From Clostridia bacterium (GTDB lineage Bacteria; Bacillota; Clostridia; Oscillospirales; CAG-272), in assembly GCA_017518975.1 (NCBI GenBank), contig JAFWTH010000050.1, positions 1-59,660 on the forward strand: DNA of 59,660 nt. Direction: 5' to 3'. Under the pieces are notes generated by a model. The model saw only the letters and a list, made by a program, of their open reading frames with translations, made no database searches and was not told the origin of the DNA. This document shows, one piece after another, positions 43,374 to 57,404 of the stretch (positions are counted from its first letter, which is position 1; every line of letters begins with the position of its first letter). Both the position numbers and the translations under genes were made by a program.

Positions 43374-43491
43374 TTTTTGCAGGCTTCCTTTTTATGTATT
43401 TGAAATCCGGGGATCTGTTTTCCCGGATCTTTTTTGCGGACTTTTGACGTTTTTCGGATTCGGGCGTGAAAACACAGCCCGGGAACGCGCG

Positions 43492-44358
43492 TCAGTTCCC
43501 GCCGTCGGCGTCAGTCGGGGTCGAAACGTCCGACGTCGGGGAGGAGTCGGAATCCGTCCTGACGATGACCCCGTTCTCAAAATATCCGTCGTATACCCTT
43601 CCTCCCGGGAAGGTGTAAACGCCCTTTCCGTTCATGAGGTTTCCGCGGAATTCGCCTTCGTACTTTTCCCCGTTCGCCCAGAGATACGTACCCGTTCCTT
43701 CTCTCATATCTCCCTTGAAGTCGCCGGTATAGCGGTCGCCGTTCGCAAAGACGATCTCGCCTTTGCCCTCCCGCATATCCGAAACGAACGATCCCGTGTA
43801 AACGGTGCCGTCGGAGTATGTGAAAACGCCCTCGCCGTCGAGCTTGCCGTCCTTGAACGAGCCGTTATATACGGAACCGTCGGAGCAGGTCAGCGTTCCG
43901 CTCCCGTTTTCCTTTCCGTCCCTGAACGAGCCCTCGTAGACGTCGCCGTTAGAATAAACGTATTTCCCCGCGCCCTCGAACACGTCGTTCCGGAACCATC
44001 CGGTATATACGTCGCCGTTTTTGTGAGTGAGCGTACCCTCGCCGTTTTTAAGCATATCGGATAAAGCGCCCTCGTAGACGTCGCCGTTCGAGTACTCGAG
44101 CTTTCCCGTCGACGCGTCGTATTTCGCCGTCATTCCGTTCGAGTAGCGGATCACTCCGCGTGCCGGCGCGCCGTCTTTGTCGACGATGCCGAAGAATTTG
44201 ACGGAAAGACCGTTTCCCGCCGTTGACGACACGTATCTGACGCCGACGAAGTAAAGGATCGCGACCGCTAAAACGAGCACGATCACCGCGGCTATCACGA
44301 TCCTGAGCATTATGGAGCCGAACGATCTCTGTTTTTTTACATACGGGTTTCCCGCCAT
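43492..44358 (-). CDS. Membrane-anchored MORN-repeat protein
   Basis: N-terminal TM segment and about 8 tandem YxNGDxYxGxFxxGxxxGxG repeats. Confidence 0.8.
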   Translation of the reverse strand: MAGNPYVKKQRSFGSIMLRIVIAAVIVLVLAVAILYFVGVRYVSSTAGNGLSVKFFGIVDKDGAPARGVIRYSNGMTAKYDASTGKLEYSNGDVYEGALSDMLKNGEGTLTHKNGDVYTGWFRNDVFEGAGKYVYSNGDVYEGSFRDGKENGSGTLTCSDGSVYNGSFKDGKLDGEGVFTYSDGTVYTGSFVSDMREGKGEIVFANGDRYTGDFKGDMREGTGTYLWANGEKYEGEFRGNLMNGKGVYTFPGGRVYDGYFENGVIVRTDSDSSPTSDVSTPTDADGGN

Positions 44359-44374
44359 TTCGTTCTCCCGCCTT

Positions 44375-44824
44375 TCAATTGAATAATGATAAGATCCAGG
44401 GCACCGCGATCACCGCGCCCTCCGTCGCCGCGGCGAGGAGGATCGTTCCGACGATCCACGCGACGGGCGAATTCCGTTTTACGTATCTGATCTCGGCTTC
44501 CGCCGCCTTTTCTTCCGGGATGTAGAAGCGCTTTTCGCCGTCCCCGTTCTCCGAAAGCTCCGTCGCCGCCACTGTCTTGCGGAGGGTCGATCTGTCGCGG
44601 AGCGCGAAACGGAAGACGCCTCCCGCGCCGATCTCAGCGGCGTTTTTCGCCGTGTCGCGCGACAACGCATCGCCGTCGATGAGCCTCTTTACGATCTTTC
44701 TGTTCGCCGCCGTCACGAAGAAGGCGAAAAGCGACGCGAGGACCAGGCCGTATCCGATACAGCGGATCGCCGCGACGAGTGGAGTCGCAGAAATAAAATA
44801 TCCAATTATATCCATTTCTTCCAT
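44375..44824 (-). CDS. Small membrane protein, unknown function
   Basis: TM segments at both ends. Start overlaps the parB stop (TAATG). Confidence 0.55.
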   Translation of the reverse strand: MEEMDIIGYFISATPLVAAIRCIGYGLVLASLFAFFVTAANRKIVKRLIDGDALSRDTAKNAAEIGAGGVFRFALRDRSTLRKTVAATELSENGDGEKRFYIPEEKAAEAEIRYVKRNSPVAWIVGTILLAAATEGAVIAVPWILSLFN

Positions 44825-45699
44825 TAATCCTCCACAGGCGGCTTCCCGCAGATCGCAGTCAGCAGCGCGTCAAGATCGTCGGCGTCCGAGTAATCGAGCG
44901 ATACCGTTCTTTTTCCCGGTCTCTGCGAAATGCGGCACCGTCTTCCGAGGATCTCCGTCACGCGCCTTTCGAGATCGCCGATATAATCGACGCCGGGCGT
45001 GTGTATTCTCGTGACCGAGGAGATCTTCTCGGAGTTGTTTTCCTTCTTTACCGCAGCCTCCGCGTCCCGGACGCTCATGTTTCTGAGTGAGATCCTTTCC
45101 GCGAGCGGGAGGATCCTCTTTTTGTCGCGCAGGCCGAGCAGCGCTCTGCCGTGACCCGCGGAGAGCTTTTTGTCCGCTATCATTTCGAGCACTTCGTCCG
45201 GAAGGTCGAGAAGACGGAGAGAGTTTGCCACCGCGCTTCGCGATTTCCCGATCCCTGCGGCGATCTCCTCCTGTGTGAGATCGTATTTCTTCATCAGTTC
45301 GCTGTAGCCTTTCGCTTCCTCGCACGGATTGAGATCCTCGCGCTGAAGGTTTTCGATCATCGCTATCTTTGAGGCGGTAAATTCATCGATCTCCATTACG
45401 ATCGCGGGGATATCGGACAGTCCCGCCATCTTCGACGCTCTCCAGCGGCGCTCCCCGGCGATGATCGAATACGTCCCCGTACCGGTCTCCCTGACGAGGA
45501 TCGGCTGGAGCACTCCGTTTGCGGCTATTGATTCCGCAAGCCCGGTCAGCGCTTCCTTATCGAATGTTTTTCTCGGCTGGTCGCCTCTCGGCTCGATATC
45601 TGATATTCTGAGTTTCGTCGCCGCATCGGCGCTCTGTCCTATCGAATTGTCGCTGAAAATTGCGTCAAGACCTCTTCCCAATCCTTTGTTCTTAGCCAT
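44824..45699 (-). CDS. parB: Chromosome partitioning protein ParB/Spo0J
   Basis: GLGRGLDAIF, GERRWRA CTP-binding box, HTH region, C-terminal dimerisation region. Confidence 0.95.
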   Translation of the reverse strand: MAKNKGLGRGLDAIFSDNSIGQSADAATKLRISDIEPRGDQPRKTFDKEALTGLAESIAANGVLQPILVRETGTGTYSIIAGERRWRASKMAGLSDIPAIVMEIDEFTASKIAMIENLQREDLNPCEEAKGYSELMKKYDLTQEEIAAGIGKSRSAVANSLRLLDLPDEVLEMIADKKLSAGHGRALLGLRDKKRILPLAERISLRNMSVRDAEAAVKKENNSEKISSVTRIHTPGVDYIGDLERRVTEILGRRCRISQRPGKRTVSLDYSDADDLDALLTAICGKPPVED

Positions 45700-45810
45700 T
45701 GAGCAATTCCTTTCTTTTTTCGCTTTTATAATATATTGTATCAGTATTCCCTCTTTTTAACGCCTGACGTGCGCGGATCGTCGCCCGGCAGGGCGTCAAT
45801 GACGGTCCGT

Positions 45811-46584
45811 TCAGACGGGACATCTTTCGATGAGCTCCCGGGCCGCTTCCATATAAGCCCGCGCGCCTTTCGAATACCTGTCGTGATAGTTTATCGGCGT
45901 TCCGAAGCCCGGCGCCTCCGAAAGAGTCACGTTTCGCGGTATTACGACGGAAAACAGTTTGTCGGCGTAGTATTTCTTTATTTCCGCCAGCACCTGCGAC
46001 GAGAGATTGAGGCGTCCGTTGTACATCGTTATGAGGATGCCCGCGACCGTGAGGCGCGGGTTATACAGCTGTTTTACTTTTTTTATCGAGAGCATCAGCT
46101 GCGTAAGCCCTTCGAGCGCGTAATATTCGCACTGCATCGGGATTACGACCGAGTCGGCGGCTGTCAGCGCGTTTACCGTCAGCATTCCGAGCGACGGCGG
46201 GCAGTCGATCATTACGTAATCGTAACCCGTCACTTTTGCTATGAAATCGGAAAGACGTCTCTCGCGTCCGTCTTCCGAGATCAGCTCGAACTCCGCGCCG
46301 GCGAGTTCAATCGTTGCCGGCACGACGGATAAACGGTCGAATTTCGTACTTGCGACACATGTTTCCGGACCTTCTCCGTCCGTCAGAGCGTTGTATGTAG
46401 TGTGACGAAGGGTTTTTTTGTTGATCCCGAGACCGCTCGTCGTATTTCCCTGCGGATCGCAGTCGATCATGAGGACTTTTTTCCCCAGTTCCGCTGTTGA
46501 AGATGCGAGGCTTATCGCCGAGGTCGTTTTTCCGACGCCGCCCTTCTGGTTGGCGAACGCGATGACGTACGGGGATCCGTTCAT
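45811..46584 (-). CDS. parA: ParA/Soj partition ATPase
   Basis: Deviant Walker A KGGVGKTT. Start taken at MNGSPYVIAF (ATG 46584). Confidence 0.95.
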   Translation of the reverse strand: MNGSPYVIAFANQKGGVGKTTSAISLASSTAELGKKVLMIDCDPQGNTTSGLGINKKTLRHTTYNALTDGEGPETCVASTKFDRLSVVPATIELAGAEFELISEDGRERRLSDFIAKVTGYDYVMIDCPPSLGMLTVNALTAADSVVIPMQCEYYALEGLTQLMLSIKKVKQLYNPRLTVAGILITMYNGRLNLSSQVLAEIKKYYADKLFSVVIPRNVTLSEAPGFGTPINYHDRYSKGARAYMEAARELIERCPV

Positions 46585-46779
46585 CTTTTGCCACGTCCTT
46601 TCATCCGCCGTGCGCGACGCGTTTTCGGTCTTTGACACGGTGTTTTGCTTCAATTGTTTATATTTTACCACTATTTGACGGAGTGTTCAACAATTTTCGG
46701 AAAGTTTTGTTCTTTCCCGGGCAATATATAACGCCGTCTTCGCGGCACGAGGGCGCAGACGGCGTTTTGTATGTCGGAA

Positions 46780-46795
46780 TGTTTCACGTGAAACA
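46780..46795. promoter_or_regulatory. parS centromere site, perfect consensus
   Basis: TGTTTCACGTGAAACA, read directly. Ends 1 nt before the stop codon of the ParB-like gene. Confidence 0.9.
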
Positions 46796-46796
46796 A

Positions 46797-47459
46797 TTAC
46801 TCGGATCGTCCGTTTTTAAGGGTTATTGTGATCACCACGCCGCAGTCCGTTCGGACGCGTGTCGAAGAAACGTCGAATCCGCACGATCTGACGGATTCCA
46901 CCGCGTGATCGATCGAGTTATAGAATATCCTCATGTCGCGGAGGAGCAGACGCCGTTTAAACTCGGTTTCAAACTTCCCTGTTCCGGGGCGATTTCCAGC
47001 GCATGGAGTTTCGTCCGAAAACGGGAGCGGATCTCCGGAGCAAAGGAGAGCTTCGACGTATTCCTCGGCGGAAGCGACGTTCATCTTCTTATTTATCATC
47101 TCGCGGAGCGCGGATATTCGTTTCGATGCGTCGGAAAAGCGAAGTGCGGCGCGCGCGTGGCGCTCGGTGAGCGCGGAAGAGAGGATAAGGTTTCTCTCTT
47201 CCGAGGAGAAGCGCAGAAGGCGAAGCTTGTTGGCGACGTAGGACTGACTGCACGAAAGGCGTTTTGCGACTTTTTCCTGCGTTAGCCCGCACGAGTCGAC
47301 AAGAGATCTGATAGCTTCAGCTTCTTCAAACATGTTCAGTTCTCCTCGGCGGGCGGGAAGCGGCACGCAGGGGGTCGCATCGGGAATCCGGTCGGCAACA
47401 GAACGCGTATTTTCGGCTGTGCCGAACGGTATACGGTCCGGGATAAGAAGTTCGTTCAT
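46797..47459 (-). CDS. ParB/Noc-like HTH protein lacking the N-terminal ParB/Srx CTPase domain
   Basis: LNMFEEAEAIRSLVDSCGLTQEKVAKRLSCSQSYVANKLRLLRF aligns with the ParB HTH region. Only ~40 aa precede it and there is no GERRxRA box. ATG 47459 follows aaaggaa. Confidence 0.7.
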   Translation of the reverse strand: MNELLIPDRIPFGTAENTRSVADRIPDATPCVPLPARRGELNMFEEAEAIRSLVDSCGLTQEKVAKRLSCSQSYVANKLRLLRFSSEERNLILSSALTERHARAALRFSDASKRISALREMINKKMNVASAEEYVEALLCSGDPLPFSDETPCAGNRPGTGKFETEFKRRLLLRDMRIFYNSIDHAVESVRSCGFDVSSTRVRTDCGVVITITLKNGRSE

Positions 47460-47752
47460 GTTAGTTTCCTTTCGGGAGCGGGATTCTGTTTGAAAGTATA
47501 CCGCGAACGGCGCGCAAAAACGCGCGGACGCGGTCGGTGTTTTATAAATTGTTTTGGGGCGCGGAGTCGTCGGAACGGACAAATTGTCGCTGAAACGGAG
47601 GAAGAAACGGGCGGCAGAACACCTGTTCATAAATACGAAAATATATTCACAAATAAGTCACAAATTGTTATTAAGTTTCATTGCTATAGGGGGAAATGCA
47701 CAAAAACGACGAAAAACGACGCAGGCGGCAGAACGCTTGGAATCGGATTTCA

Positions 47753-47864
47753 GTTTTCAACGAAAGTTTTCAACAGGTCTTTGAAAAAAACGAAAAAAAA
47801 GGGATAATTGGCGTTCTTGAGGGGGACTTTTTCCCCATTTTCAACAGTCTAAACTGTTGAAAAC
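47753..47864. promoter_or_regulatory. Cluster of GTTTTCAAC boxes in an AT-rich divergent intergenic region
   Basis: gttttcaac at 47753 and 47766. attttcaacag at 47837 and its inverted copy ctgttgaaaac at 47854 form the palindrome ttttcaacag-tctaaa-ctgttgaaaa. Confidence 0.5.
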
Positions 47865-48086
47865 TCGAAAATGAGTCGAACCGATTCTATTTTTTCAAGT
47901 GCCTAAATGGAGAAATTAGGTAATTTTCCGATAAAAAATATCAAAAAACGGGGAAAAAACAAATAAAGCGATTTTTTAACAAGAAACCGTTTGACGGGCT
48001 GCCGGATCGGCGGAAAGTCGTAATAAAACGGGACGGAGAAGCGTATCGTGTTCTCGAATAAAACGTATTCGGCGAGGGGGCGGAAA

Positions 48087-49439
48087 ATGAGATCAATGTT
48101 AAAACGTATGCTCGTCTCTGTTTTGTTTTTAGCGTTCCTGACTGCGTGTTCGGGCGCGCAGACGAGGGGAGGGATCGCGCGGGATCACGAAACAACGCGG
48201 GAAGATCCCGAGGCACAAATCCCGCAGCCCGCTGTTCGGGACGGATTTGAGTTTACAGTTGTCAGATCCGGAAGGGAGGGACGGGAATCGCTCGAACGCG
48301 CCGTCCGCCTCCGCGATATGGCGGCGAAAGAACAGAGCGGTGTTTCAGTAAAGTACGTCGACGCCGCGGACGACGCCGCCGCGCAGATTGCCGCCGCGGC
48401 GGACTATCTGTCGGGAGAGCACGGGTACTGCGCGGCGGAAGGATCGTTTTCGCATCTTGCGGCGCCGCTTCTCGCGAAGGGCGCGCTGTGCCCGGCGGAG
48501 GATTTCTGCGGCGCGCTCGGGGAGGACAGTCTGAACGCATCCCTTAAAACGAAAAACGGGACGTACTTCATAACTGGTCCGATCGTTCCGCGTTCGCTTG
48601 GTGACGTATCGTGTATCGCGGCCAATCTTGAGACGGCGCGTCGCTTCAGCGTCAGACTTCCCGACGAGACGACTCTTGCGGGTCCCGGCGGATGGGACGC
48701 GCTGACGGCGTCGGCGTCACCCGTCCCGCGCGGCGTCGGGATCTACAGATACGGAGTGACCGACAGGTCGGTCGGGATCGCCGTTCTCGGAGCGTCGGGC
48801 GTTTCCGTCACCGCGAAAAACGAAGACGAAGTCCCGCTGGTCCCGGCGCTCTCGAGGGAGACGGCGGAAGCGCTCAAAAAGGCCGCGTCGCTGTTCGGCG
48901 ACGGATCGACGGCGTACCGCCCGGACGAACGGATGCCGCGGGAGGAGCGGGAGCACGCCGCAGTCGCCACGTTCTCGGATCCCGGGGTCTTATATCTGTT
49001 TTGTAAAACAAAGGATATCCCGGAGCTGCGCGATAAAGGAAACGACATACGCATCCTCCCGTATCCCGGAGGGGCGAGCCGCGCGGACAGTACGGGAGGC
49101 ACGACGGCGGTGATCCTGAAAGGGGGAGACGACTCGGGCGTTGCGGCGGCGCTCGGAACGCTTGAAGAACTGTCCCTCAGATATACGCTCCCGGAGGCGT
49201 ACGACGCGTTCCTTTCGGGGAGAACGCGTTACGACTCCGACTCCCGAGACGCCGTCGCGGGCATGCTTTCGGCGCCCGTGTACGAACTCGCGCTCGCAGT
49301 CGCGGGAGAGGACGGAGAGCGGGCGTCCGATATGGCGTCCGACGCGGCGCTGGGCGATCCCGACGCGCTTATCGGATGGGATCTGAAAGCCGCGCTTATC
49401 AAGCCCGGGGTCGAGAAGATCTTCGCGGAGGATCCCTGA
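48087..49439 (+). CDS. Lipoprotein, unknown function
   Basis: MRSMLKRMLVSVLFLAFLTACSG has a canonical lipobox. RBS gaggggg. Confidence 0.7.
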   Translation: MRSMLKRMLVSVLFLAFLTACSGAQTRGGIARDHETTREDPEAQIPQPAVRDGFEFTVVRSGREGRESLERAVRLRDMAAKEQSGVSVKYVDAADDAAAQIAAAADYLSGEHGYCAAEGSFSHLAAPLLAKGALCPAEDFCGALGEDSLNASLKTKNGTYFITGPIVPRSLGDVSCIAANLETARRFSVRLPDETTLAGPGGWDALTASASPVPRGVGIYRYGVTDRSVGIAVLGASGVSVTAKNEDEVPLVPALSRETAEALKKAASLFGDGSTAYRPDERMPREEREHAAVATFSDPGVLYLFCKTKDIPELRDKGNDIRILPYPGGASRADSTGGTTAVILKGGDDSGVAAALGTLEELSLRYTLPEAYDAFLSGRTRYDSDSRDAVAGMLSAPVYELALAVAGEDGERASDMASDAALGDPDALIGWDLKAALIKPGVEKIFAEDP

Positions 49440-49520
49440 CGGAAACACGGCGCACGCGCTTCTTTTTCAGCCGGCGCGGGAATAGAATGAACAGAAGTAT
49501 ACTCCCCGGAGGAGAGAAAA

Positions 49521-52238
49521 ATGAACGACGGTATATCTTTCGGAAAAAGAGAGGAAAGGCGGAGCCCGGATCGCACGGCGTTCGCGCCGCGCACGGGAGG
49601 TCTGACGGAAGCCGAGGCGGAGGAGTCTCGCCGTCTTTGGGGCAGAAACGAACTGACCCGTAAGAAAAAGCCGTCGCTTGCCGCTGACTTCTTCCGCAAT
49701 CTTTCCGACCCGATAATAAGGATTCTCCTTTGCGCCATGGGAATTAACGCGGCGCTCACTTTCAGAAATATCAACTGGGTCGAGATGGGCGGGATCGCGT
49801 TTACCGTGCTCACCGCCACGCTCGTTTCAACGATATCCGAACACTCGTCTTCTGCGGCGTTCGAAAAACTGGAGCGGGAGACGAAAACGGCGGAATTCAC
49901 CGTGATACGGGACGGAGAGTCAAGGCGCGTACCGTCCGGCGACGTCGTAAAAGGGGATCTGATCGTCCTCGCCGCCGGGCAGGTCGTGCCGTGCGACGGA
50001 GTGGTCGTCGACGGCGTCGTGAAGGTCGATCAGTCCTCTCTGACCGGCGAATCCCGTCCCGCGGAGAAAAAGCCGTCCGCCTCGCCCGGAGAAAAGATCA
50101 AGGCGGGCGGAGGGGACGCCGCCGATCCCGGACTCGTGCTCGCGGGATCGAGCGTCGTTTACGGGGAATGCCGCGCCGTCGCCGTCGCCGTCGGAGACGC
50201 GACGGCATACGGGAAGATCGCATCGGAGCTTCAGGTGCGCGAGGAGCCCAGCCCGCTCAAGGAAAGACTGAAAAAACTCGCCGTTTCGATCAGCAAAATC
50301 GGATACGCGGCGGCGGCGGTCGTCGCCCTCGCGTATATTTTCAACGAGTTCGTGATCGGCGCGGGATTCGATCCCGCCGTGATAGGCGCGCGCTTGTCGG
50401 ACTTGCGGTTTCTCTCGTCGACTCTTCTCCGCGCGCTTACGGTAGCCGTTTCGGTCGTAGTCGTCGCCGTTCCCGAGGGACTTCCGATGATGATAACGGT
50501 CGTGCTTTCCGCAAATATGAAAAAGATGATGAAAAACGGCGTCATCGTGAAAAAACTTGTGGGGATCGAGACGGCGGGAAATATGAGTCTGCTTTTTACA
50601 GACAAGACGGGGACTCTGACGACCGGGAGGATGACCGCAGAACGCGTTCTCACGGGAGACGGATCGTTCACGCCCGGGGAGGTAAAAAGACAGGCGGGGG
50701 TATTCCGGTATATCGCCGCCGCGGCGGCGTTCTGCTCCCCGCCGGACGGCGGGAACGCGACGGGGAGGGCGGCGGACTCCGTGGCGGGAGCCGCTCGCCC
50801 GTCGGGAATGAGGGGGATATCCCGCCTGCCGTTCGATTCCGCCCGGAAATACGCCGCCGCGCTCGTTTACGACGAAAAGGCGGGAGAAGCCAGGACGCTC
50901 ATACGGGGCGCTCCGGAACTCGTCATTCCGCGCTGTTCATCGTTTACCGCGGCGGACGGGACGTCCCTGCCTCTGCGCGAAAAGGGTTCCGCGGCGATCG
51001 CCTCGGAGATAGCCGGGGAGGAGGGGGACGCGGTGCGAGTTCTCGCTCAGGCGACCGGACCCGCCGACGCATATGAAAAACTCACGCGTGGTGAGATCCC
51101 GGGCGGCCTGTGCTTCACGTGCGCCTTTTTTATAAAGGACGAGATAAGAAAAACGATCCGCGCCTCGGCGGACGAGTGCCGAGAAGCGGGGATCAAGGTT
51201 ATAATGATAACGGGGGACGGAAAAAACACCGCCTGCGCGGTCGCGGAAGCGGCGGGCCTTCTCCCGAGACGGCGGCGGGACGACTCCGCGGTGCTGTCGT
51301 CCGTACAAATCGGGGCGATGAGCGACGAGGCGCTTGCCGCCGCGCTTCCGGGGATATCGGTCATATACCGCGTCACGCCCGGGGACAAAAGCCGTCTCGT
51401 CAGAGCGGCGCGTCTCGCGGGTCACGTAGTCGGGATGACGGGCGACGGGGTGAACGACGCCCCCGCGCTCCGCGCGGCGGACGTCGGATTCGCTATGGGG
51501 AGCGGAGCGGAAGTTGCCAAAGAGGCGGGCGACGTCGTGATCTCGGACGACGATTTTTCGTCGATCACACGCGCCGTTCTTTACGGCAGGACGATCTTCG
51601 AGAGCATACGGAAATTCATAACCTTTCAGCTCATAATGAACCTCTGCGCGGTCGGCGTCTCGGTGATCGGACCGCTGATCGGAGTCAAGACGCCAATCAC
51701 GATCCCGCAGATGCTGTGGATCAACGTAATAATGGACACGCTCGGTTCTCTCGCTTTCGCGGGAGAAGCTCCGAGGAAGTCCTTCATGAAGCGCGCGCCG
51801 CGCAGACGGGAGGAACCGATCCTCTCCCGGGACACGGTCAGGACGATCGTCTCGCGCGGGCTTTATTCTCTCTCTTTTTTCGTGTGGTTCCTGACTTCTC
51901 ACTTCACAAAGGAGCGTTTCGGGGACGGGGATAAGGAATTTCTCACGGCGTTTTTCGCGCTGTTCGTCTTTTTCGGGATCGCGAACGCGATGATCGCCCG
52001 GTGCGACAGGATAAATATCCTTGCGGGGATGTTTTCGAACGCGCCGTTTGTCCTCATAATGGCGCTCGTCGCGACGGTCCAGCTTTTGCTGATCGGATTC
52101 GGCGGAGAGGCGTTCCGTACCGTTCCGCTGTCCCGGGGCGATCTTTTGCTCACCGCCGCCTTCGCCGTCACCGTCTTTCCGGCGGATCTTGTTTTCAAAC
52201 TGTTCCGTATGCGCCGAAGGCGCAAAAATACGGCGTAA
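49521..52238 (+). CDS. Cation-transporting P-type ATPase (P2, Ca2+-type)
   Basis: DKTGTLT, TGDGKNTA, MTGDGVNDAPAL motifs and a cation-ATPase N-terminal domain. Confidence 0.92.
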   Translation: MNDGISFGKREERRSPDRTAFAPRTGGLTEAEAEESRRLWGRNELTRKKKPSLAADFFRNLSDPIIRILLCAMGINAALTFRNINWVEMGGIAFTVLTATLVSTISEHSSSAAFEKLERETKTAEFTVIRDGESRRVPSGDVVKGDLIVLAAGQVVPCDGVVVDGVVKVDQSSLTGESRPAEKKPSASPGEKIKAGGGDAADPGLVLAGSSVVYGECRAVAVAVGDATAYGKIASELQVREEPSPLKERLKKLAVSISKIGYAAAAVVALAYIFNEFVIGAGFDPAVIGARLSDLRFLSSTLLRALTVAVSVVVVAVPEGLPMMITVVLSANMKKMMKNGVIVKKLVGIETAGNMSLLFTDKTGTLTTGRMTAERVLTGDGSFTPGEVKRQAGVFRYIAAAAAFCSPPDGGNATGRAADSVAGAARPSGMRGISRLPFDSARKYAAALVYDEKAGEARTLIRGAPELVIPRCSSFTAADGTSLPLREKGSAAIASEIAGEEGDAVRVLAQATGPADAYEKLTRGEIPGGLCFTCAFFIKDEIRKTIRASADECREAGIKVIMITGDGKNTACAVAEAAGLLPRRRRDDSAVLSSVQIGAMSDEALAAALPGISVIYRVTPGDKSRLVRAARLAGHVVGMTGDGVNDAPALRAADVGFAMGSGAEVAKEAGDVVISDDDFSSITRAVLYGRTIFESIRKFITFQLIMNLCAVGVSVIGPLIGVKTPITIPQMLWINVIMDTLGSLAFAGEAPRKSFMKRAPRRREEPILSRDTVRTIVSRGLYSLSFFVWFLTSHFTKERFGDGDKEFLTAFFALFVFFGIANAMIARCDRINILAGMFSNAPFVLIMALVATVQLLLIGFGGEAFRTVPLSRGDLLLTAAFAVTVFPADLVFKLFRMRRRRKNTA

Positions 52239-52380
52239 GCCGTATATCATACCGTGCGGAGCGCGGTATATCATTCGCCGTCAGGCGTATATCATGCCCG
52301 CCCATTTCGGGGGCGGGTATATCATTTTTCGGTTTCTTCATCAACGCCGCCGTAGGGAGGCATCCCTTTGATGCCTCCGT
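52231..52380 (+). repeat. Hairpin array 5 (TATATCAT linkers), left inverted repeat of the AMP-ligase islet
   Basis: tatatcat at 52244, 52268, 52289 and 52319. Hairpins are acggc-gtaa-gccgt, accgtgc-gga-gcgcggt, cgcc-gtca-ggcg, cccgccc-atttc-gggggcggg and ggaggcatc-ccttt-gatgcctcc (52357-52379). Confidence 0.75.
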
Positions 52381-52445
52381 GAAAGATATGCGGTATCGTT
52401 ATTTACGGTCTGTAGGGTTGCCTCTCAGGCAACCGCAAATTACTG

Positions 52446-52651
52446 TTGATTTTTCTCGCACGATATGCTAAACTGAACCTGCGACACAAACGAATATTTC
52501 TTTGCGTAAGTGTGTATTTTTACTAACGGTAAAAATGCATGCTCCTTATGCATACTTATGCAAAGGAATCGTTTGTGTCGCAGCAACGAAGCAATGCATT
52601 TTTCGGTGCGTGGCTTCGGCTGCGCACTTTTTTATTGTGAGGAAAGAAAAA
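52446..52651 (+). promoter_or_regulatory. Promoter plus structured leader element A with terminator (attenuator/riboswitch-like)
   Basis: TTGATT (52446), 17 nt, TAAACT (52469). 15-bp helix 52479-52493/52569-52583. Inner helix 52500-52510/52555-52565. Hairpins at 52516-52536 and 52535-52553. UUCG-loop terminator 52606-52627 + U6. RBS gaggaaag at 52639. Confidence 0.65.
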
Positions 52652-54391
52652 ATGGCAGAAAACATTATGAAAGAAGTAAAATTTATAGACTACTATAACG
52701 GAGCGATAGAAAAAAGCGATTCTTTACCCAAAGGGAACGAATATGATTTTTTGCTTGAGAGAAATAAATCTCATATGCGCGAAACGGCATTAACCTTCGG
52801 GAAAAAGAATATTTCTTTTGAAGAGTTACACGAAAAGATTGACGAGTACGCCAGAGCTCTTTATCATTACGGGGTTAGAAAGGGAGACTATATCGGCGTA
52901 TGTGTTGCCAATACTCCCGAATCCGTCTACTTGGTTTACGCTCTTAACAAATTAGGCGCTGTAATGGTGGGCTTGAGTCCATTGAATAACGAATACAAAA
53001 TGGTTCGAGATATCGAATTGACGCAACCGAAAATGATTTTTACATTGGATTTTATGTATTCAACAATCAAGAAAGCATGTGCAGAATACAGTATAAAACC
53101 AATTCTTTACTCGCCGTTGCTTTCAATTAAGAATCCAATTATAAAGGGACTATATAATTTTAAGCAACACAAAGAAGGTAACCTCCTTTCATCAAAAGAA
53201 AACCGACTGGATAAAATCATCAAAAGCGACAAGTTATCAAACGTTGAGTATTCAAAACATATTAACGGAACATGTACTAACATAATGTTTACCGGCGGAA
53301 GCAGCGGAGTGCATAAAGGAGTTATGCTCGACGGCAACGGCCTGAATTGTGTCGTAAAAGCACTCGACCATGTTTTGGTTTTAGAACCTGGAATGGTTCA
53401 TCTGGGAAATATCCCTTTCGGACATATGTGTTTCGGAAGATTGGTGTTGCATTACGTTCTATGTAAAAACGCTACATATGCATTAACACTCAAAGCAATG
53501 CCTCAAGATTTTTTAGATGAAATGATAAGAGTTCATGCAAACGGCGCAATGGGAGGACCGGTGCATTGGGAAGCACTTATTGATAATCCAAAATTGAAAA
53601 AAGGGTGCTTGGGTGAATTGATCCAGCCTTTATCCGGGGGCGAATTGTTTAAACCTCAGAGACTTAAACAAGCAAATGAAGCAATTAAACATGCAGGTTG
53701 CAAAGCAGAGATCGGTAACGGTCTTGGATCTACCGAAATGTGGGCTCCGACACATGTATGCGTTGGAGGACGAAATACCTCCGGGACCATAGGATATGAA
53801 TTACCTTTTGTCCATTCAAAAATTGTTGATCCAATAACATTTGAAGAAGTTCACGACGGGGAAAACGGATTACTGCTTGTCAACGGTCCGGGAATGATGT
53901 TGGGATATTTTAAAAACGAGAAAGAAACAGAATCGGTTTTTTGTTTTGACGAAAGCGGAACAAAATGGTATAACACAAAGGATATCGTGAGAAAGCTACC
54001 GACCGATGAATATGAGTACATAGGTCGTATAAAAAGGAACTTCGTTTCAGGCGTTGACAATATTTACCCAGAACAAATAGAACAACTGTTAATACAGATA
54101 CCTGAAATTCGAGAAGTTGCAGTTACGCCGATTCCTGATGAGAATGAACAGCATTTGCCTAAATATCATATCAGATTGTCTGAGGAGAATTGCGATAAAG
54201 CGAAAACTGAAGCAAGTATTGTTTCGATAGTTGAATCAACTTTGGGAAGAACGGCTGTGCCTGGTTATATTGAATACTATGATAAACCATTGCCTCGAAC
54301 AGATAACGGAAAACTAGATGTTACATTGCTTAGCCAAAAAGATATAGACTCTATCCAGGATAAAGACCGGTATAGAACTGCTTTCAGATGA
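52652..54391 (+). CDS. ANL-superfamily adenylate-forming enzyme (AMP-dependent synthetase/ligase)
   Basis: FTGGSSGVHKGV (AMP-binding core motif), GNGLGSTEM, YNTKD...GRIKR. About 35 % GC versus ~58 % in the flanks. Confidence 0.85.
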   Translation: MAENIMKEVKFIDYYNGAIEKSDSLPKGNEYDFLLERNKSHMRETALTFGKKNISFEELHEKIDEYARALYHYGVRKGDYIGVCVANTPESVYLVYALNKLGAVMVGLSPLNNEYKMVRDIELTQPKMIFTLDFMYSTIKKACAEYSIKPILYSPLLSIKNPIIKGLYNFKQHKEGNLLSSKENRLDKIIKSDKLSNVEYSKHINGTCTNIMFTGGSSGVHKGVMLDGNGLNCVVKALDHVLVLEPGMVHLGNIPFGHMCFGRLVLHYVLCKNATYALTLKAMPQDFLDEMIRVHANGAMGGPVHWEALIDNPKLKKGCLGELIQPLSGGELFKPQRLKQANEAIKHAGCKAEIGNGLGSTEMWAPTHVCVGGRNTSGTIGYELPFVHSKIVDPITFEEVHDGENGLLLVNGPGMMLGYFKNEKETESVFCFDESGTKWYNTKDIVRKLPTDEYEYIGRIKRNFVSGVDNIYPEQIEQLLIQIPEIREVAVTPIPDENEQHLPKYHIRLSEENCDKAKTEASIVSIVESTLGRTAVPGYIEYYDKPLPRTDNGKLDVTLLSQKDIDSIQDKDRYRTAFR

Positions 54392-54464
54392 TTCCAAAAA
54401 ACAATTATTCGGTTTGGGTAAGATCGTACGGCAAAGCAAGTCACAAAAGCAATTCCCATTTTGA

Positions 54465-54495
54465 AGTTGCGTCATTTCCGGCGCAACTTTTTATT
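54465..54495 (+). terminator. Intrinsic terminator of the AMP-ligase gene
   Basis: agttgcg-(10-nt loop)-cgcaact followed by tttttatttt. Confidence 0.6.
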
Positions 54496-54581
54496 TTACG
54501 CCCTTTATAATTACGAAAGGGTTTTAAGTGCCTAAGACAATTAAGATGCGGAGGGCTGAGAGCCCTCCCCCTATAGGCTCA

Positions 54582-54776
54582 AATGAAGAAACCGGACCTT
54601 TGGAGACGGAGGCATCAAAGGGATGCCTCCCTACGGCGGTATCAATAAAGATCCCGCCAAAATGATATACCCGCCCCCGAAAGGGGCGGGTATGGTATCC
54701 CGCTTGGGCGGGATGATATACTCCTTCGGAGTATGATATACCGCTGACGCGGTATGAGATACTGCCTGCGGCAGTA
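54582..54776 (-). repeat. Hairpin array 6 (TATATCAT linkers, minus-strand reading), right inverted repeat of the islet
   Basis: atgatata on the + strand at 54662, 54713 and 54733, with variants at 54754. ggaggcatc-aaagg-gatgcctcc at 54609-54631. cccgccccc-gaaa-ggggcggg. Inverted copy of 52296-52380. Confidence 0.75.
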
Positions 54777-57404
54777 TTATTCTCCCAGCGCCGCGAGCGC
54801 GGCGGTGATGCCGTCCTTCTTTTCGGTGAACTTCGCAAGCTTGACGCGCTCCGCGTCGACGACGGCGGCGGGCGCTTTCTCGGTGAAGCCCTTATTGGAC
54901 AGTTTGCCTTCGACGCGGGCGATCTCGGCGTTCACTTTATCGAGTTCCGCGCGCAGACGCGCCTTCTCCTCTTCCGGATCGACGAGATCCGTCATGGGGA
55001 TGAAGACCGTCGCGCTGTCGGTGACGATGCGGACGGAGCCGGACTCCGAGTGATCGCTCACGATATCAAGCGAGGACGCTCCGGCTAGACGTTTGAAGAA
55101 TTCTTCCGTTCCCTCGAACGCCTTCGGGTACTTCGTTGCGATGAAGAGCGACGTTCTGCGCGACGGCTTGACGCCCATCTCCGCGCGGCGCTGTCTGATC
55201 GCGCCGATGGCGGCGATCACGCGCTCCATATCCTCCGCCTCGGAGGGGAACGACGGGATGTTTCCCGCGACGGGGTAATCCTTCACCATGATATATCCTT
55301 CCTCGCCCGGAAGACCCGAATAGATCTCTTCGGTGATGAAGGGCATGAACGGATGAAGGAGCTTCAGCGTCTCGCGCAGTACGTACGCCAGCACGTTCTG
55401 CGCGGTCTGTGATCTTTCCTTATCCTCTCCGGAGACCGATTTCTTCGACAACTCGATGTACCAGTCGCAGTATTCGTCCCAGATGAAGTCGTAGATCGCC
55501 GAGAGCGCGACGCCGATCTCGTAGTTTTCGAGGTTGCTCTCTGCGGCAGCGGCGGCAGCGGACAGTTTCGTGAGGATCCACTTGTCCTCCGGCGCAAGTT
55601 TTTCGGCGTCGGGCAGTTCGATCCGGTCGATATCGAGGTTCATCATCACGAAGCGCGCCGCGTTCCACAGCTTGTTCGCGAAGTTGCGCGCCGCCTCGAT
55701 CTTCTCGTCCGAGAAGCGCATATCGTTTCCGGGGCTGTTGCCCGTGGCGAGAGCGAAGCGGAGGGCGTCCGCGCCGTATTTGTCGATGATCTCGAGCGGG
55801 TCGATGCCGTTGCCGAGCGATTTCGACATCTTTCTGCCCTGCGCGTCGCGCACGAGACCGTGGATCAGTACGGTGTCGAACGGGATCCTGCCCGTGTACT
55901 CAAGCGAGGAGAAGATCATACGGGAGACCCAGAAGGTGATGATATCGTAGCCCGTGACGAGCGTGTTCGTTGGAAAGAACCGTTTGAGATCGGCGGCTTC
56001 CGTATCCGGCCAGCCCATCGTCGAGAAGGGCCAGAGAGCGGATGAGAACCAGGTGTCGAGCGTATCGGGGTCCTGATGCATCGAGCCGCCGCAGTCGGGA
56101 CAGCGGTCGGGAGCGGTCTTCGATACGACCGTCTTTCCGCACTTGTCGCAGTAGTAGGCGGGGATCCTGTGACCCCACCAGAGCTGTCGGGAGATACACC
56201 AGTCGCGGATATTCTCCATCCAGTGGAAGTAGTTCTTTGAGAAGCGTTCGGGGACGAATCTGATCTCACCTGAGCGGACCGCCTCGATCGCCGGGCCGGC
56301 GAGGGGCGCCATTTTGACGAACCACTGCAGAGACGCGCGCGGTTCGACCGTCGTTCCGCAGCGGTAGCAGGTGCCGACGTTGTGGACGTGATCCTCGACG
56401 GAGACGAGGAAGCCGCCCGCCTCGAGATCGCGCACGATTGCTTTGCGCGCCTCGTAGCGGTCCATTCCGGCGTACGCCGGGTAGTCGTCCGTGATCTTCG
56501 CGTCGGGCGTCATAACGTTGACGATCGGCAGATCGTGGCGACGGCCGACCTCAAAGTCGTTCGGGTCGTGCGCGGGCGTGATCTTGACGACGCCTGTACC
56601 GAATTCGATATCGACGTAATTGTCGGCGACGACGGGGATCCGTCTGCCGACGAGCGGCAGGATCAGCGTTTTGCCGACGAGATCCTTATATCTCTCGTCG
56701 TTCGGGTTCACCGCGACCGCCGTGTCGCCCAGAAGCGTCTCCGGGCGGGTCGTCGCGAGTTCGACGAAGCCGGAACCGTCCTCGAACGGGTAGCGCAGAT
56801 GCCAGAAATGACCGGGCTGTTCCTCGTATTCGACCTCCGCGTCGGAGATCGAGGTGAGGCAGTGCGGGCACCAGTTGATTATGCGCTCGCCGCGGTAGAT
56901 GAGGCCCTTGTCGTAAAGACGGGTGAAGACCTCGAGGACCGCCTCGGAGCAGCCCTCGTCGAGGGTGAAGCGCTCGCGCGACCAGTCGCAGGAAGAGCCC
57001 ATCTTCTTGAGCTGTTCGATTATCCTGCCGCCGTATTTACGGCGCCATTCCCACGCGCGCTCGAGGAATCCGTCTCTGCCTACGTCGTCCTTCGTCAGTC
57101 CCTCTTTTTTCATTGCCTCGACGATCTTCGCCTCCGTCGCGATCGACGCGTGGTCGGTGCCCGGGAGCCAGAGGGTGGATATCCCTTTCATCCTCTTGTG
57201 GCGGATGAGGATATCCTGAAGCGTGTTGTCGAGGGCGTGACCCATGTGGAGCTGACCCGTGATGTTCGGCGGCGGGATGACGATCGAATAGTGACCCTTC
57301 GACATGTCGTCCGACGGGGCGAAAAGGCCCTTTTCCGACCACTCAGAGTATATCCTGTCCTCGAACGAGGCGGGGTCGTATGTCTTCGGAAGTTCTTTTT
57401 TCAT
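54777..57404 (-). CDS. valS: Valine--tRNA ligase
   Basis: 875 aa, HMGH (PNITGQLHMGHAL) and KMSKS motifs, C-terminal coiled coil. Confidence 0.97.
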   Translation of the reverse strand: MKKELPKTYDPASFEDRIYSEWSEKGLFAPSDDMSKGHYSIVIPPPNITGQLHMGHALDNTLQDILIRHKRMKGISTLWLPGTDHASIATEAKIVEAMKKEGLTKDDVGRDGFLERAWEWRRKYGGRIIEQLKKMGSSCDWSRERFTLDEGCSEAVLEVFTRLYDKGLIYRGERIINWCPHCLTSISDAEVEYEEQPGHFWHLRYPFEDGSGFVELATTRPETLLGDTAVAVNPNDERYKDLVGKTLILPLVGRRIPVVADNYVDIEFGTGVVKITPAHDPNDFEVGRRHDLPIVNVMTPDAKITDDYPAYAGMDRYEARKAIVRDLEAGGFLVSVEDHVHNVGTCYRCGTTVEPRASLQWFVKMAPLAGPAIEAVRSGEIRFVPERFSKNYFHWMENIRDWCISRQLWWGHRIPAYYCDKCGKTVVSKTAPDRCPDCGGSMHQDPDTLDTWFSSALWPFSTMGWPDTEAADLKRFFPTNTLVTGYDIITFWVSRMIFSSLEYTGRIPFDTVLIHGLVRDAQGRKMSKSLGNGIDPLEIIDKYGADALRFALATGNSPGNDMRFSDEKIEAARNFANKLWNAARFVMMNLDIDRIELPDAEKLAPEDKWILTKLSAAAAAAESNLENYEIGVALSAIYDFIWDEYCDWYIELSKKSVSGEDKERSQTAQNVLAYVLRETLKLLHPFMPFITEEIYSGLPGEEGYIMVKDYPVAGNIPSFPSEAEDMERVIAAIGAIRQRRAEMGVKPSRRTSLFIATKYPKAFEGTEEFFKRLAGASSLDIVSDHSESGSVRIVTDSATVFIPMTDLVDPEEEKARLRAELDKVNAEIARVEGKLSNKGFTEKAPAAVVDAERVKLAKFTEKKDGITAALAALGE

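What the first reader, a model, noticed from the sequence alone, without database searches (positions are those of the whole stretch)
52296..54690. A ~35 % GC single-gene islet (AMP-ligase plus its leader) bracketed by inverted copies of a hairpin-array repeat
GC content drops from ~58 % to ~35 % between about 52400 and 54520. The low-GC segment holds one promoter, one leader, one ANL-family adenylating enzyme gene and one terminator. It is flanked by imperfect inverted repeats of ~85 bp or more. The left copy at 52296-52380 reads gcccgccc.tttcgggggcgggtatatcatttt ... gccgccgtagggaggcatccctttgatgcctccgt. The right copy at 54606-54690 is the reverse complement, and ggtttcttcat (52331) also matches 54582 in reverse complement. 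No transposase or integrase is present. Either the cassette was captured between two copies of the host repeat, or the repeats themselves mediate insertion or inversion.
Basis: seen in the sequence. Interest (0 to 1): 0.65.

Follow-up and report, generated by a model that had tools for sequence, protein, structure and literature searches.

The report
Foreign ligase gene between host repeats
A rumen Clostridia lineage long ago acquired one acyl-CoA-ligase-type gene from low-GC Bacilli; it sits between two convergent housekeeping genes, and the mirrored repeats around it are copies of the host's own REP and 'Gut-1' hairpin repeats, not the ends of a mobile cassette.

Summary
A 2,112-bp segment (52437-54548) has 38.5 % GC against 61 % in its flanks. 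It holds one promoter-like site, one leader, one ANL (AMP-binding) gene and one terminator, and mirrored repeats bracket it.

The repeats are not cassette ends. Each flank consists of five 'Gut-1'-type mini-hairpins (Rfam RF01706) plus two REP elements (unpaired GTAG head, covarying stem). This REP family has about 60 copies in the genome. A RAYT-like transposase gene, itself flanked by REPs, lies on another contig.

The gene is foreign but not recent:
- Only 2 of 20 genomes of the genus carry it, at the same site.
- It has diverged in step with its neighbour (dS 0.73 against 0.78) under purifying selection (dN/dS 0.08).
- Its nearest outside relatives (63-72 % aa) lie in 25-28 % GC Bacilli/RF39-like genomes. 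There the context is HTH - ligase - hybrid kinase, with no such leader or repeats.

One sister species has no islet and no repeats at the site. A sheep-gut strain has deleted most of the gene by microhomology, not through the repeats. No inversion was seen, but the available data cannot exclude one.

Verdict: an old, partly ameliorated single-gene islet inside a REP/BIME-like cluster. This is ordinary, with one modestly interesting side result: REP clusters are enriched at islet borders.

The parts
49521..52238 (+). P-type cation ATPase (905 aa), the left convergent host gene. Its last codons and its stop codon lie inside the first array hairpins.
   Evidence: Pfam E1-E2_ATPase, Cation_ATPase_C/N and Hydrolase; ORF listing.
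52210..52328 (-). Left Gut-1-type hairpin array: five GC mini-hairpins joined by the linker TATATCAT (TGATATA on the - strand). The last hairpin (52294-52320) plus a T-run is terminator-like for the ATPase.
   Evidence: Rfam RF01706 match at 52223-52297 (-), 33.7 bits, below the gathering score of 50. Folds as five hairpins, z = -5.5. Terminator-like site.
52330..52380 (+). TTCTTCAT motif followed by REP element 'B' (CCGTAGGGAGGCATCCCTTTGATGCCTCCGT); GTAG head distal to the islet.
   Evidence: REP census; perfect 34-nt inverted match to 54606-54639.
52410..52436 (+). Second REP element, same orientation (CTGTAGGGTTGCCTCTCAGGCAACCG).
   Evidence: the orthologous copy in G003 reads GTAGGGATGCCTCTCAGGCATCCG.
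52446..52474 (+). Promoter-like site TTGATT-17 nt-TAAACT.
   Evidence: Read in the sequence; conserved in G003; below the threshold of the consensus scan.
52475..52651 (+). Leader: long hairpin (arms 52479-52493 / 52569-52583), then an intrinsic terminator at 52605-52636. Its 3' module is multi-copy in this genome.
   Evidence: BLAST hits of 52573-52636 to C101, C128, C58, C24 and C31:37336-37370. k-mer depth 3-7 times that of the flanks in metagenome contigs. No real Rfam family. Absent from donor-type loci.
52652..54391 (+). ANL-superfamily adenylating enzyme (acyl-CoA-ligase-like), 579 aa, GC 38.6 %, GC3 0.352.
   Evidence: Pfam. NCBIfam best hits are fatty-acid-CoA ligase models, all far below their cut-offs. 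PDB 3g7s FadD-1, 1e-25. 576 homologues at E<=1e-30.
54463..54495 (+). Intrinsic terminator of the ligase gene.
   Evidence: conserved in form in G003.
54549..54577 (-). REP element 'E' with a mutated head (CCTATAGGGGGAGGGCTCTCAGCCCTCCG). It is intact, with a GTAG head, in G003.
54583..54639 (-). TTCTTCAT motif (54583-54594) and REP element 'B', the inverted twin of 52347-52380; head distal to the islet.
54660..54777 (+). Right Gut-1-type hairpin array: five hairpins with linker TGATATA. The first hairpin (54667-54693), read on the - strand, is terminator-like for valS.
   Evidence: Rfam RF01706 match at 54690-54765 (+), 53.3 bits, above the gathering score of 50. Folds as five hairpins, z = -9.4. 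Terminator-like site.
54777..57404 (-). Valyl-tRNA synthetase (875 aa), the right convergent host gene.
   Evidence: Pfam tRNA-synt_1, Anticodon_1 and Val_tRNA-synt_C.

Best explanation
The low-GC segment is an old, horizontally acquired single gene: an ANL-family acyl-CoA-ligase-like enzyme that came from low-GC Bacilli (RF39/Erysipelotrichales-like gut bacteria).

Shown:
- The gene lies at the junction of two convergent housekeeping genes in an uncultured ruminant-gut Clostridia lineage.
- It was already there before species G000 and G003 split. It has since been inherited vertically under purifying selection and is partly ameliorated.
- It is driven by a promoter and attenuator leader that have other copies in the host genome and are absent from the donor-type loci.
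- The mirrored sequences around it are two host repeat families. One is Gut-1-type arrays of mini-hairpins, whose innermost hairpin looks like the terminator of the ATPase on one side and of valS on the other. The other is REP elements (unpaired GTAG head plus covarying stem). A RAYT-like Y1 transposase gene encoded elsewhere in the genome is flanked by REPs of the same family.
- The flanks are inverted because each follows the 3' end of one of two convergent genes, and because REPs in this genome habitually occur as inverted doublets.

Inferred:
- The foreign DNA most likely integrated by illegitimate recombination into the AT-rich spacer of a pre-existing tail-to-tail REP doublet, inside a BIME-like cluster.
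- The repeats now act, at most, as terminators or insulators.
- The islet is not mobile on its own.
For: Foreign origin:
- GC 38.5 % against 61 %, GC3 0.35 against 0.74/0.82, tetranucleotide distance at the 98.6th percentile.
- An ortholog in only 1 of 19 other genomes of the genus.
- The nearest outside homologues (63-72 % aa) lie in 25-28 % GC contigs, where the gene has native composition (GC3 0.13-0.17). Their conserved context is HTH_3 <- ligase -> hybrid histidine kinase -> response regulator.
- The record titles read uncultured Bacilli, Tenericutes, Erysipelotrichaceae and Clostridium sp. CAG:609.
- A Bacteroidales MAG carries the gene in a separate low-GC islet.

Old and functional:
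- G003 (a goat-omasum Clostridia MAG) has the same order, ATPase -> ligase -> valS.
- Ligase dS is 0.726 and dN/dS 0.084; the neighbouring ATPase has dS 0.784.

Leader and flanks belong to the host lineage:
- They have no similarity to any donor-type locus.
- The leader's 3' module has at least six other copies in the genome.

The repeats are host families:
- Rfam Gut-1 matches both flanks, and there are 14 matches in the genome at E<=10, three of them above the gathering score.
- GTAGG is followed by a hairpin in 77 of 1,240 cases, against about 1 % for seven of eight control heads.
- The strict REP pattern occurs 29 times in G000 and 14 times in G001, and not at all in G003, in 22 further relatives or in the reversed control.
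- Stem positions 4-8 show two to three alternative Watson-Crick pair types beside an invariant head.
- The RAYT-like ORF C56:131-592 is flanked by REPs. Its best NCBIfam hit is REP_Tyr_transpos (66.6 bits) and its best PDB hit is 4er8, TnpA-REP (8e-9). G001 also has a RAYT homologue, with a five-REP cluster next to it.

Bracketing is ordinary:
- Contig C37, which carries recA, is bounded by inverted REPs in the same heads-out arrangement.
- Tail-to-tail doublets with 44-65-nt spacers occur on C44, C93 and C69.

The repeats are not used in rearrangement:
- The sheep-gut contig in run X9 joins 52463 to 54266 (1,802 bp lost, 3-nt overlap) and keeps all the repeats.

Not an assembly artefact:
- The same structure is seen in G003, in ENA contig L044 and in runs X5, X6 and X9.
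Against: - No genome shows the presumed pre-insertion state, a REP cluster without the islet.
- The only site without the islet (G001) also lacks every repeat and is probably a secondary loss or replacement. G001 appears to be the sister of G000 (96 % against 84 % nt over 4.8 kb), with mosaic identity towards the ATPase.
- The order of events, repeats first or gene first, is therefore inferred only.
- The composite junction shared by both flanks (last array hairpin + TATATCATTTT + about 23 nt + REP-B, 88 % over 85 nt) was found nowhere else next to a Gut-1 array. The two flanks are therefore true paralogues from an inverted duplication or gene conversion whose cause is unknown.
- The RAYT-like gene lies on a 1.8-kb contig of a MAG and scores below NCBIfam's cut-off (66.6 against 80 bits).
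- The terminator or insulator function of the flanks rests on sequence form alone.
Confidence: 0.65

Rival explanations
1. Gene first, repeats later. The foreign gene integrated into a plain convergent junction like that of G001. The two new intergenic spacers were then colonised by Gut-1-type arrays and REPs, and the flanks were made alike by gene conversion between the inverted copies.
For: - G001's junction is about 45 bp with one bidirectional terminator and no repeats, so such a plain state does exist in the clade.
- The repeat flanks turn over quickly. G003's right array has a different linker (AATTCAT) and different hairpins, and its left flank has an extra REP doublet.
- REP clusters lie at GC steps more often than terminator-like hairpins do: 6/21 against 6/108, p = 0.0045, and 2/8 in G001. 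A preference of REPs for new AT-rich spacers would also produce this.
Against: - It needs the same unusual composite (array-end hairpin + linker + REP-B) to arise twice in mirror image, or a conversion tract of at least 85 nt.
- All four REPs were already present in the common ancestor of G000 and G003, so colonisation would have had to be early and complete.
- G001's plain site is probably derived rather than ancestral.
Confidence: 0.2
2. The whole unit is a non-autonomous mobile cassette. The inverted REP-containing ends serve as terminal repeats, and the RAYT or another enzyme mobilises them in trans. Alternatively the 34-bp inverted copies drive inversion as a switch.
For: - A perfect 34-nt inverted core and 88 % identity over 85 nt.
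- A RAYT-like gene is present in the genome.
- The k=31 contigs break exactly at the repeat copies, so an alternative orientation cannot be excluded from these data.
Against: - The unit was found at only one chromosomal site, in two species.
- All 60-72 % homologues examined lack the ends.
- The REP heads point outward, the opposite of the heads-in arrangement around the RAYT gene itself.
- G003 keeps the gene, in the same orientation, with a truncated right REP and no RAYT.
- The X9 contig crosses both REPs in the reference orientation, and its deletion does not use them.
- No target-site duplication can be defined.
- No integron integrase: best hit 53.6 bits against a cut-off of 265.
Confidence: 0.07
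3. The gene is native to the lineage and is kept AT-rich by selection, or the segment is a metagenomic mis-assembly joined at shared repeats.
For: - The gene is under purifying selection and has co-diverged with its neighbours.
- Contig graphs are ambiguous at the repeats.
Against: - Present in 2 of 20 genomes of the genus.
- The closest relatives are in another class, where the gene has native composition.
- The same join is seen in independent MAGs and samples, including a contig that spans both junctions.
Confidence: 0.04

Closest known systems
REP/BIME elements and their RAYT (TnpA-REP) transposases. GTAG-tagged REPs are described mainly in Proteobacteria (PMC3733652, PMC3116915, PMC3479197).
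   Same: - A 24-28-nt palindrome with an unpaired 5' GTAG head.
- Dozens of extragenic copies.
- Covarying stems that define subfamilies.
- Inverted doublets and mosaic clusters.
- A Y1/HUH transposase gene, one copy detected in this assembly, flanked by REPs.
- Degenerate copies at this locus in a relative in which no RAYT homologue was found (G003).
   Different: - The host is an uncultured ruminant-gut Clostridia bacterium; the 2013 GTAG survey does not mention Firmicutes.
- The REPs usually carry a TTCTTCAT motif 8-10 nt upstream.
- At this locus they abut Gut-1-type arrays.
- The RAYT scores below NCBIfam's cut-off.
- No activity was tested.
Gut-1 RNA motif (Rfam RF01706; Weinberg et al. 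2010, PMC2864571)
   Same: Three or more small GC hairpins joined by a constant UGAAAU-like linker. The right flank passes Rfam's gathering score.
   Different: - The linker is UGAUAU(A).
- Each array has five hairpins.
- The left copy is below the threshold.
- The arrays behave as dispersed, fast-changing DNA repeats at gene 3' ends, in either orientation, rather than as a stand-alone non-coding RNA gene.
Horizontally acquired genomic islets undergoing amelioration (general concept; stated from my own knowledge)
   Same: Atypical GC, GC3 and tetranucleotide use; patchy distribution; location at a variable intergenic junction; composition partly shifted towards that of the host.
   Different: A single gene with no integrase, tRNA target or direct repeats. 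It has acquired a host-type regulatory leader.
Composite transposons, MITEs with cargo, and integron gene cassettes
   Same: A short segment bracketed by inverted repeats and lacking its own recombinase.
   Different: - The ends do not travel with the cargo.
- There is no target-site duplication.
- There is no integron integrase.
- The unit has its own promoter.
- The repeats occur genome-wide around ordinary genes.
FadD-type acyl-CoA synthetases of the ANL superfamily (e.g. PDB 3g7s)
   Same: AMP-binding and AMP-binding_C domains; a Lys in a PRTDNGK motif at the expected A10 position near the C-terminus.
   Different: About 25-28 % identity to characterised enzymes. It scores far below every NCBIfam equivalog cut-off and the substrate is unknown. 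In the donor lineages the gene is linked to an HTH regulator and a hybrid histidine kinase.

Membership tests
REP / RAYT system | Short imperfect palindrome with a conserved unpaired GTAG (or GTGG) tetranucleotide at one end | tested here: met
   GTAGGGA(S)SSnTC...GAnSSSTCCG. GTAGG is followed by a matching hairpin in 77 of 1,240 cases, against about 1 % for seven of eight control heads (CTAGG 6 of 100). The head and the first three pairs are invariant; pairs 4-8 covary.
REP / RAYT system | High copy number, extragenic, often in inverted pairs or mosaic clusters (BIME/REPIN) | tested here: met
   64 copies at 44 loci in a fragmented MAG. 16 of 360 contig ends carry the signature, against 2.9 expected. 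Head-to-head and tail-to-tail doublets occur.
REP / RAYT system | A Y1 (HUH) transposase of the RAYT type, flanked by REPs | tested here: met
   C56:131-592, 154 aa, has the motifs HVH and Y. It is flanked by REPs. Its best NCBIfam hit is REP_Tyr_transpos, 2e-18, but at 66.6 bits it is below the 80-bit cut-off. Its best PDB hit is 4er8, TnpA-REP, 8e-9. G001 has a homologue next to a five-REP cluster.
REP / RAYT system | RAYT cleaves and mobilises its REPs | not testable with these tools
   Indirect evidence only: G003 has no RAYT homologue and no strict REP, and the REPs at its copy of this locus are degenerate or truncated.
Gut-1 RNA (RF01706) | Covariance-model score at or above Rfam's gathering score (50 bits) | tested here: met
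   The right flank, 54690-54765 (+), scores 53.3 bits. The left flank, 52223-52297 (-), scores 33.7 bits and is not met. Three sites in the genome are above the cut-off.
Mobile cassette with terminal inverted repeats (composite transposon / MITE with cargo) | The same ends accompany the cargo at different genomic sites | tested here: not met
   The unit is found at one site only, in G000 and in G003/L044. Seven donor-type loci have no similarity to the leader or flanks.
Mobile cassette with terminal inverted repeats (composite transposon / MITE with cargo) | Target-site duplication outside the ends | tested here: inconclusive
   No direct repeat at the outer edges other than array units. The arrays run into the stop codons of both flanking genes, so the ends cannot be defined.
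Integron gene cassette | Integron integrase and attC-bounded promoterless cassettes in an array | tested here: not met
   TIGR02249: best hit 53.6 bits against a cut-off of 265. There is a single unit with its own promoter, leader and terminator.
ANL superfamily adenylating enzyme | AMP-binding N-domain plus C-terminal domain, above Pfam thresholds | tested here: met
   PF00501 156.3 bits; PF13193 38.1 bits.
Horizontally acquired islet | Atypical composition plus patchy distribution plus closest relatives in a distant taxon | tested here: met

The most novel reading that the evidence does not exclude
REP/BIME-like clusters, here fused to Gut-1-type hairpin arrays, at the 3' ends of convergent genes may be preferred landing pads for foreign single genes in these gut Clostridia, and may then serve as ready-made transcriptional insulators. 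The hairpin-rich, AT-spaced doublets would be where incoming DNA is joined by illegitimate recombination. That would explain why REP clusters sit at GC steps about 4-5 times more often than ordinary terminator hairpins in two genomes. This locus, five array hairpins and two REPs on each side of the islet in mirror image, would be the clearest example.
Probability: 0.2. Interest if true: 0.6.

Novelty: new member of a known kind. Interest (0 to 1): 0.33.

Why it matters
The result mainly tidies up the finding. What looked like a transposase-less cassette with terminal inverted repeats is an ordinary, old horizontal acquisition lying inside host repeats.

Three by-products may be useful:
- It documents a GTAG-type REP family with a RAYT-like gene in uncultured ruminant-gut Clostridia. 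One sister species lacks both the RAYT and strict REPs, and the REPs at its copy of this locus are degenerate.
- It shows the function-unknown Gut-1 motif behaving as a fast-changing DNA repeat at gene 3' ends, physically joined to REPs at this locus.
- It gives a small but replicated signal that REP clusters mark the borders of foreign islets. Larger genome sets could test this.

It also shows a foreign ORF placed under a leader family that has other copies in the host genome, which is a tidy case of regulatory domestication.

Tried and rejected
- Rfam on the leader gave only spurious microRNA-family hits, far below their thresholds.
- The consensus promoter scan did not list the TTGATT/TAAACT promoter, which matches 8 of 12 positions. 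The hits it did list inside the ORF are at the level expected from shuffles.
- I looked for other states of the ATPase-valS junction in JGI/ENA metagenome contigs. An exact valS 3'-end pattern found nothing, and a valS C-terminal protein search found nothing closer than 54 %.
- Inversion or excision in sequencing runs: all 22 runs are held only as k=31 contigs, which break at the 34-bp repeat. Inversion is therefore untestable, and no joint of that kind was seen. Runs X1-X3 give virtually identical contigs and may not be independent.
- Integron reading: rejected.
- Assembly-chimera reading: rejected, because the structure recurs in G003, L044 and runs X5, X6 and X9.
- The 'empty site' in G001 as the pre-insertion state: I first read it that way and then withdrew it. 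G001 appears closer to G000 than G003 is, which makes a loss or a recombinational replacement in G001 more likely.
- My first terminator regex for the null set failed, finding one hit. I rewrote it.
- Other low-GC islets that border REPs (C16, C91, C119) have REP clusters on one side only. Two-sided bracketing is therefore not a general rule.
Full report
**1. The observation**

GC in 200-nt windows is 0.55-0.70 in the flanks and 0.32-0.46 between about 52400 and 54520. The segment between the innermost repeats (52437-54548, 2,112 bp) is 38.5 % GC. The 2 kb on either side are 61.0 % and 61.3 %. Only 1.6 % of 2.1-kb windows of the 2.51-Mb genome (mean 53.5 %) are as low, and the tetranucleotide distance of the segment from the genome is at the 98.6th percentile.

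The segment holds one real ORF, 52652-54391 (+), 579 aa, with Pfam AMP-binding and AMP-binding_C. Upstream are a promoter-like TTGATT-17-TAAACT (52446-52474) and a leader. The leader has a long hairpin with perfect 15-bp arms and a terminator at 52605-52628; a second terminator lies at 54463-54490.

The inverted repeats are real. They are 81-84 % complementary over 63 + 56 nt and 88 % over 85 nt by BLAST (E 1e-16), with a perfect 34-nt core.

**2. What the repeats are**

Each flank folds into five small GC hairpins plus two larger ones (z = -4.3 to -9.4).

The outer five are arrays of variable hairpins joined by the linker TATATCAT.
- They match the Rfam family Gut-1 (RF01706). The right array scores 53.3 bits, above the gathering score of 50; the left scores 33.7 bits.
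- The genome has 14 matches at E<=10, and three are above the cut-off.
- Gut-1 was described only from human-gut metagenomes, as a presumed non-coding RNA of unknown function (PMC2864571).
- The innermost array hairpin on each side (CCCGCCC...GGGCGGG followed by ATCATTTTT) is terminator-like in the direction of the adjacent host gene.

The inner two hairpins on each side are REP elements.
- They have an unpaired GTAG head followed by a stem. The first three pairs are invariant and pairs 4-8 covary between subfamilies.
- GTAGG is followed by a matching hairpin in 77 of 1,240 occurrences, against about 1 % for seven of eight control pentamers (CTAGG 6 of 100).
- The strict pattern occurs 29 times in this genome and 14 times in the sister species G001. 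It does not occur in G003, in 22 further relatives or in the reversed control.
- REPs are usually preceded by TTCTTCAT and form head-to-head or tail-to-tail doublets and clusters.
- They interrupt the assembly: 16 of 360 contig ends carry the signature, against 2.9 expected.

A 154-aa ORF on contig C56 has HUH and Tyr motifs and is flanked by REPs.
- Its best NCBIfam hit is 'REP-associated tyrosine transposase' (2e-18; 66.6 bits, below the 80-bit cut-off).
- Its best PDB hit is E. coli TnpA-REP, 4er8 (8e-9).
- G001 has a homologue followed directly by a five-REP cluster.
- G003 has neither a RAYT homologue nor strict REPs, and the REPs at its copy of this locus are degenerate or truncated.

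This matches GTAG-tagged REP/RAYT systems as described in the literature (PMC3733652, PMC3116915, PMC3479197). The 2013 survey does not mention Firmicutes.

**3. What the gene is and where it came from**

The protein is a generic ANL adenylating enzyme. Its best NCBIfam models are fatty-acid-CoA ligases, all far below their cut-offs, and its best PDB hit is FadD-1, 3g7s.

Among 40 relatives, only G003 has an ortholog (89 % aa); the others have paralogues of 28 % identity or less.

Outside the genus there is a large family, with 576 proteins at E<=1e-30.
- The closest members (63-72 % aa) lie in contigs of 25-28 % GC, where the gene has native composition (GC about 29 %, GC3 0.13-0.17).
- There it sits in a conserved arrangement: HTH_3 regulator (divergent), ligase, hybrid histidine kinase, response regulator.
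- The record titles name uncultured Bacilli, Tenericutes, Erysipelotrichaceae and Clostridium sp. CAG:609.
- A Bacteroidales MAG (53 % GC) carries the gene in its own low-GC islet.
- None of these loci has any similarity to the leader or the flanks seen here.

The 3' module of the leader has at least six other copies in this genome, and its k-mer depth in gut metagenomes is 3-7 times that of the flanks. Earlier notes of this scan (e1-4655409, e1-4655410) describe it as a family of attenuator leaders in gut and rumen Clostridia. I used that only as a lead. The ORF is therefore foreign, and its control region has other copies in the host genome.

**4. How old it is**

G003 (goat omasum MAG RGIG2706) has ATPase -> ligase -> valS in the same order and orientation, with ligase GC of 39.5 %.

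Between G000 and G003 the ligase has dN 0.061, dS 0.726 and dN/dS 0.084. The adjacent ATPase has dS 0.784. The gene was therefore present before these species split and is maintained by selection. Its GC3 (0.35-0.39) lies between the donor-type values (0.13-0.17) and the host values (0.74-0.82), which is what partial amelioration predicts.

It is not met for 'foreign', because the composition is still atypical in both species.

**5. The state of the site in relatives**

- **G001.** The site has about 45 bp with one bidirectional terminator, and no islet, arrays or REPs.
- **G014.** It has a 957-aa SLH-domain gene of host-like GC (61 %) in the interval.
- **Polarity.** G001 is probably the sister of G000. 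It is 96 % against 84 % identical over window 38580-43380, and valS dS is 0.31 against 0.43. Its identity to G000 falls to 79 % and then 69 % towards the ATPase. G001's plain site is therefore more likely a secondary loss or a recombinational replacement than the pre-insertion state. I leave the polarity open.
- **Sheep-gut strain (run X9).** It is nearly identical in the flanks. It has lost 52463-54266, that is, the leader and most of the ORF. The joint has a 3-nt overlap and all the repeats are kept. This contig also crosses both REPs in the reference orientation.
- **Ancestral repeats.** In G003 all four REPs can be recognised at the same positions, so they date from the common ancestor. 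The right REP-B is cut off after 9 nt and followed by unrelated sequence and an array with a different linker (AATTCAT). The left flank has an extra REP doublet. The flanks therefore turn over much faster than the gene.

**6. Do the repeats bracket the gene for a reason?**

Arguments against a cassette:
- There is one site only.
- The donor-type loci lack the ends.
- The REP heads point outward, the reverse of the arrangement around the RAYT gene.
- recA on contig C37 is bracketed in the same way.
- There is no integron integrase.
- The one deletion variant ignores the repeats.

Arguments for more than coincidence:
- The two flanks share a composite (last array hairpin, linker, about 23 nt, REP-B) that I found next to no other Gut-1 array. 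They are therefore paralogous.
- REP clusters lie at GC steps of 0.12 or more in 6 of 21 evaluable loci, against 6 of 108 terminator-like hairpins (Fisher p = 0.0045; p = 0.014 if this locus is counted once).
- G001 gives 2 of 8 as a small replicate.
- The other islets have REPs on one side only.

Tail-to-tail REP doublets with 44-65-nt AT-rich spacers exist elsewhere in the genome. The most economical model is that the foreign DNA was joined into such a spacer within a BIME-like cluster at the convergent junction. This step is inferred, not shown.

**7. Limits**

- Only k=31 contigs of the runs were available, and they break at the 34-bp repeat, so inversion cannot be tested.
- The genome is a 180-contig MAG. 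The RAYT contig is short, and REP counts are lower bounds.
- Terminator and promoter functions are read from sequence form.

**8. Verdict**

This is an old, partly ameliorated, single-gene horizontal acquisition embedded in host REP and Gut-1 repeats: a new member of known kinds. The REP-at-islet-border signal is the one lead worth testing at scale.

Noticed in passing
G000 contig C56:1-700 (locus L015): A RAYT-like Y1 transposase ORF (131-592, 154 aa) is flanked by REPs of the same GTAG family: 73-96 on the - strand upstream, and about 600-625 on the + strand plus a partial copy downstream. It is the only copy detected in this assembly.
   Followed up: yes
G001:C127 (locus L085/L078), just downstream of its RAYT homologue: A BIME-like cluster of five REPs in alternating orientation follows the RAYT stop codon. 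G003 has no RAYT homologue and no strict REPs, and the REPs at its copy of the ATPase-valS locus are degenerate. This fits REP decay after RAYT loss.
   Followed up: partly
G000 genome-wide; G001 loci L080, L081: REP clusters sit at GC steps (borders of low-GC islets) more often than terminator-like hairpins: 6/21 against 6/108 in G000, and 2/8 in G001. Examples are C16:2071, C91:10938-11099 and C119:1624-1706.
   Followed up: partly
window 52463 / 54266 (run X9, sheep gut, contig of 675 nt): A natural deletion variant lacks 1,802 bp (the -10 region, the leader and all but the last 126 nt of the ligase gene). The joint has a 3-nt overlap. The variant also has a 9-nt deletion in the loop of the right REP-B (54613-54623).
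   Followed up: yes
loci L036, L038, L040, L043 and the record of P0002: In low-GC Bacilli-type genomes the ligase family sits in a conserved module: a small divergent HTH_3 regulator, the ligase, a 578-609-aa hybrid histidine kinase and a response regulator. This suggests a role linked to signalling. Here only the ligase ORF is present.
   Followed up: partly
locus L030 (G014:C69), interval between valS and the ATPase: A third state of the same convergent junction: a 957-aa SLH-domain protein gene of host-like GC (61 %). The junction is a variable spot in the genus.
   Followed up: partly
window 38000-52238 compared with G001: Identity to G001 is mosaic: 96 % (38580-43380), 79 % (43554-46959), 69 % (46840-50000), ATPase 80 %, then valS 92 %. 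This suggests a recombination tract that ends at the ATPase-valS junction.
   Followed up: partly
G000 contigs C8, C37, C54, C61, C71, C84, C109, C121, C173 (ends): An approximately 150-nt composite repeat recurs at many contig ends: hairpin CCTTCCCCTCAAGGGGAAGG, then TTCTTCAT, then REP-A, then a conserved tail. It evidently breaks the assembly. The 2.1-kb contig C37, which carries recA, is bounded by inverted copies.
   Followed up: partly
window 7381-7458; G000 C17:42501-42575, C119:43251-43330, C132:3950-4040, C125:42332-42449: Other Gut-1-type arrays lie between a stop codon and a T-run terminator, with the linker TGAWAT in the sense of the upstream gene. That is the opposite linker orientation to the two arrays at this locus. 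Array orientation relative to the upstream gene is therefore not fixed genome-wide. Identical hairpin units are shared between arrays at different loci (C35, C132).
   Followed up: partly
locus L029 (G003) 6420-6740: At the orthologous position the array next to valS uses a different linker (ATGAATT) and entirely different hairpins from those in G000. The arrays were replaced, not merely mutated, since the species split.
   Followed up: no
They may be the same data deposited more than once.
   Followed up: no
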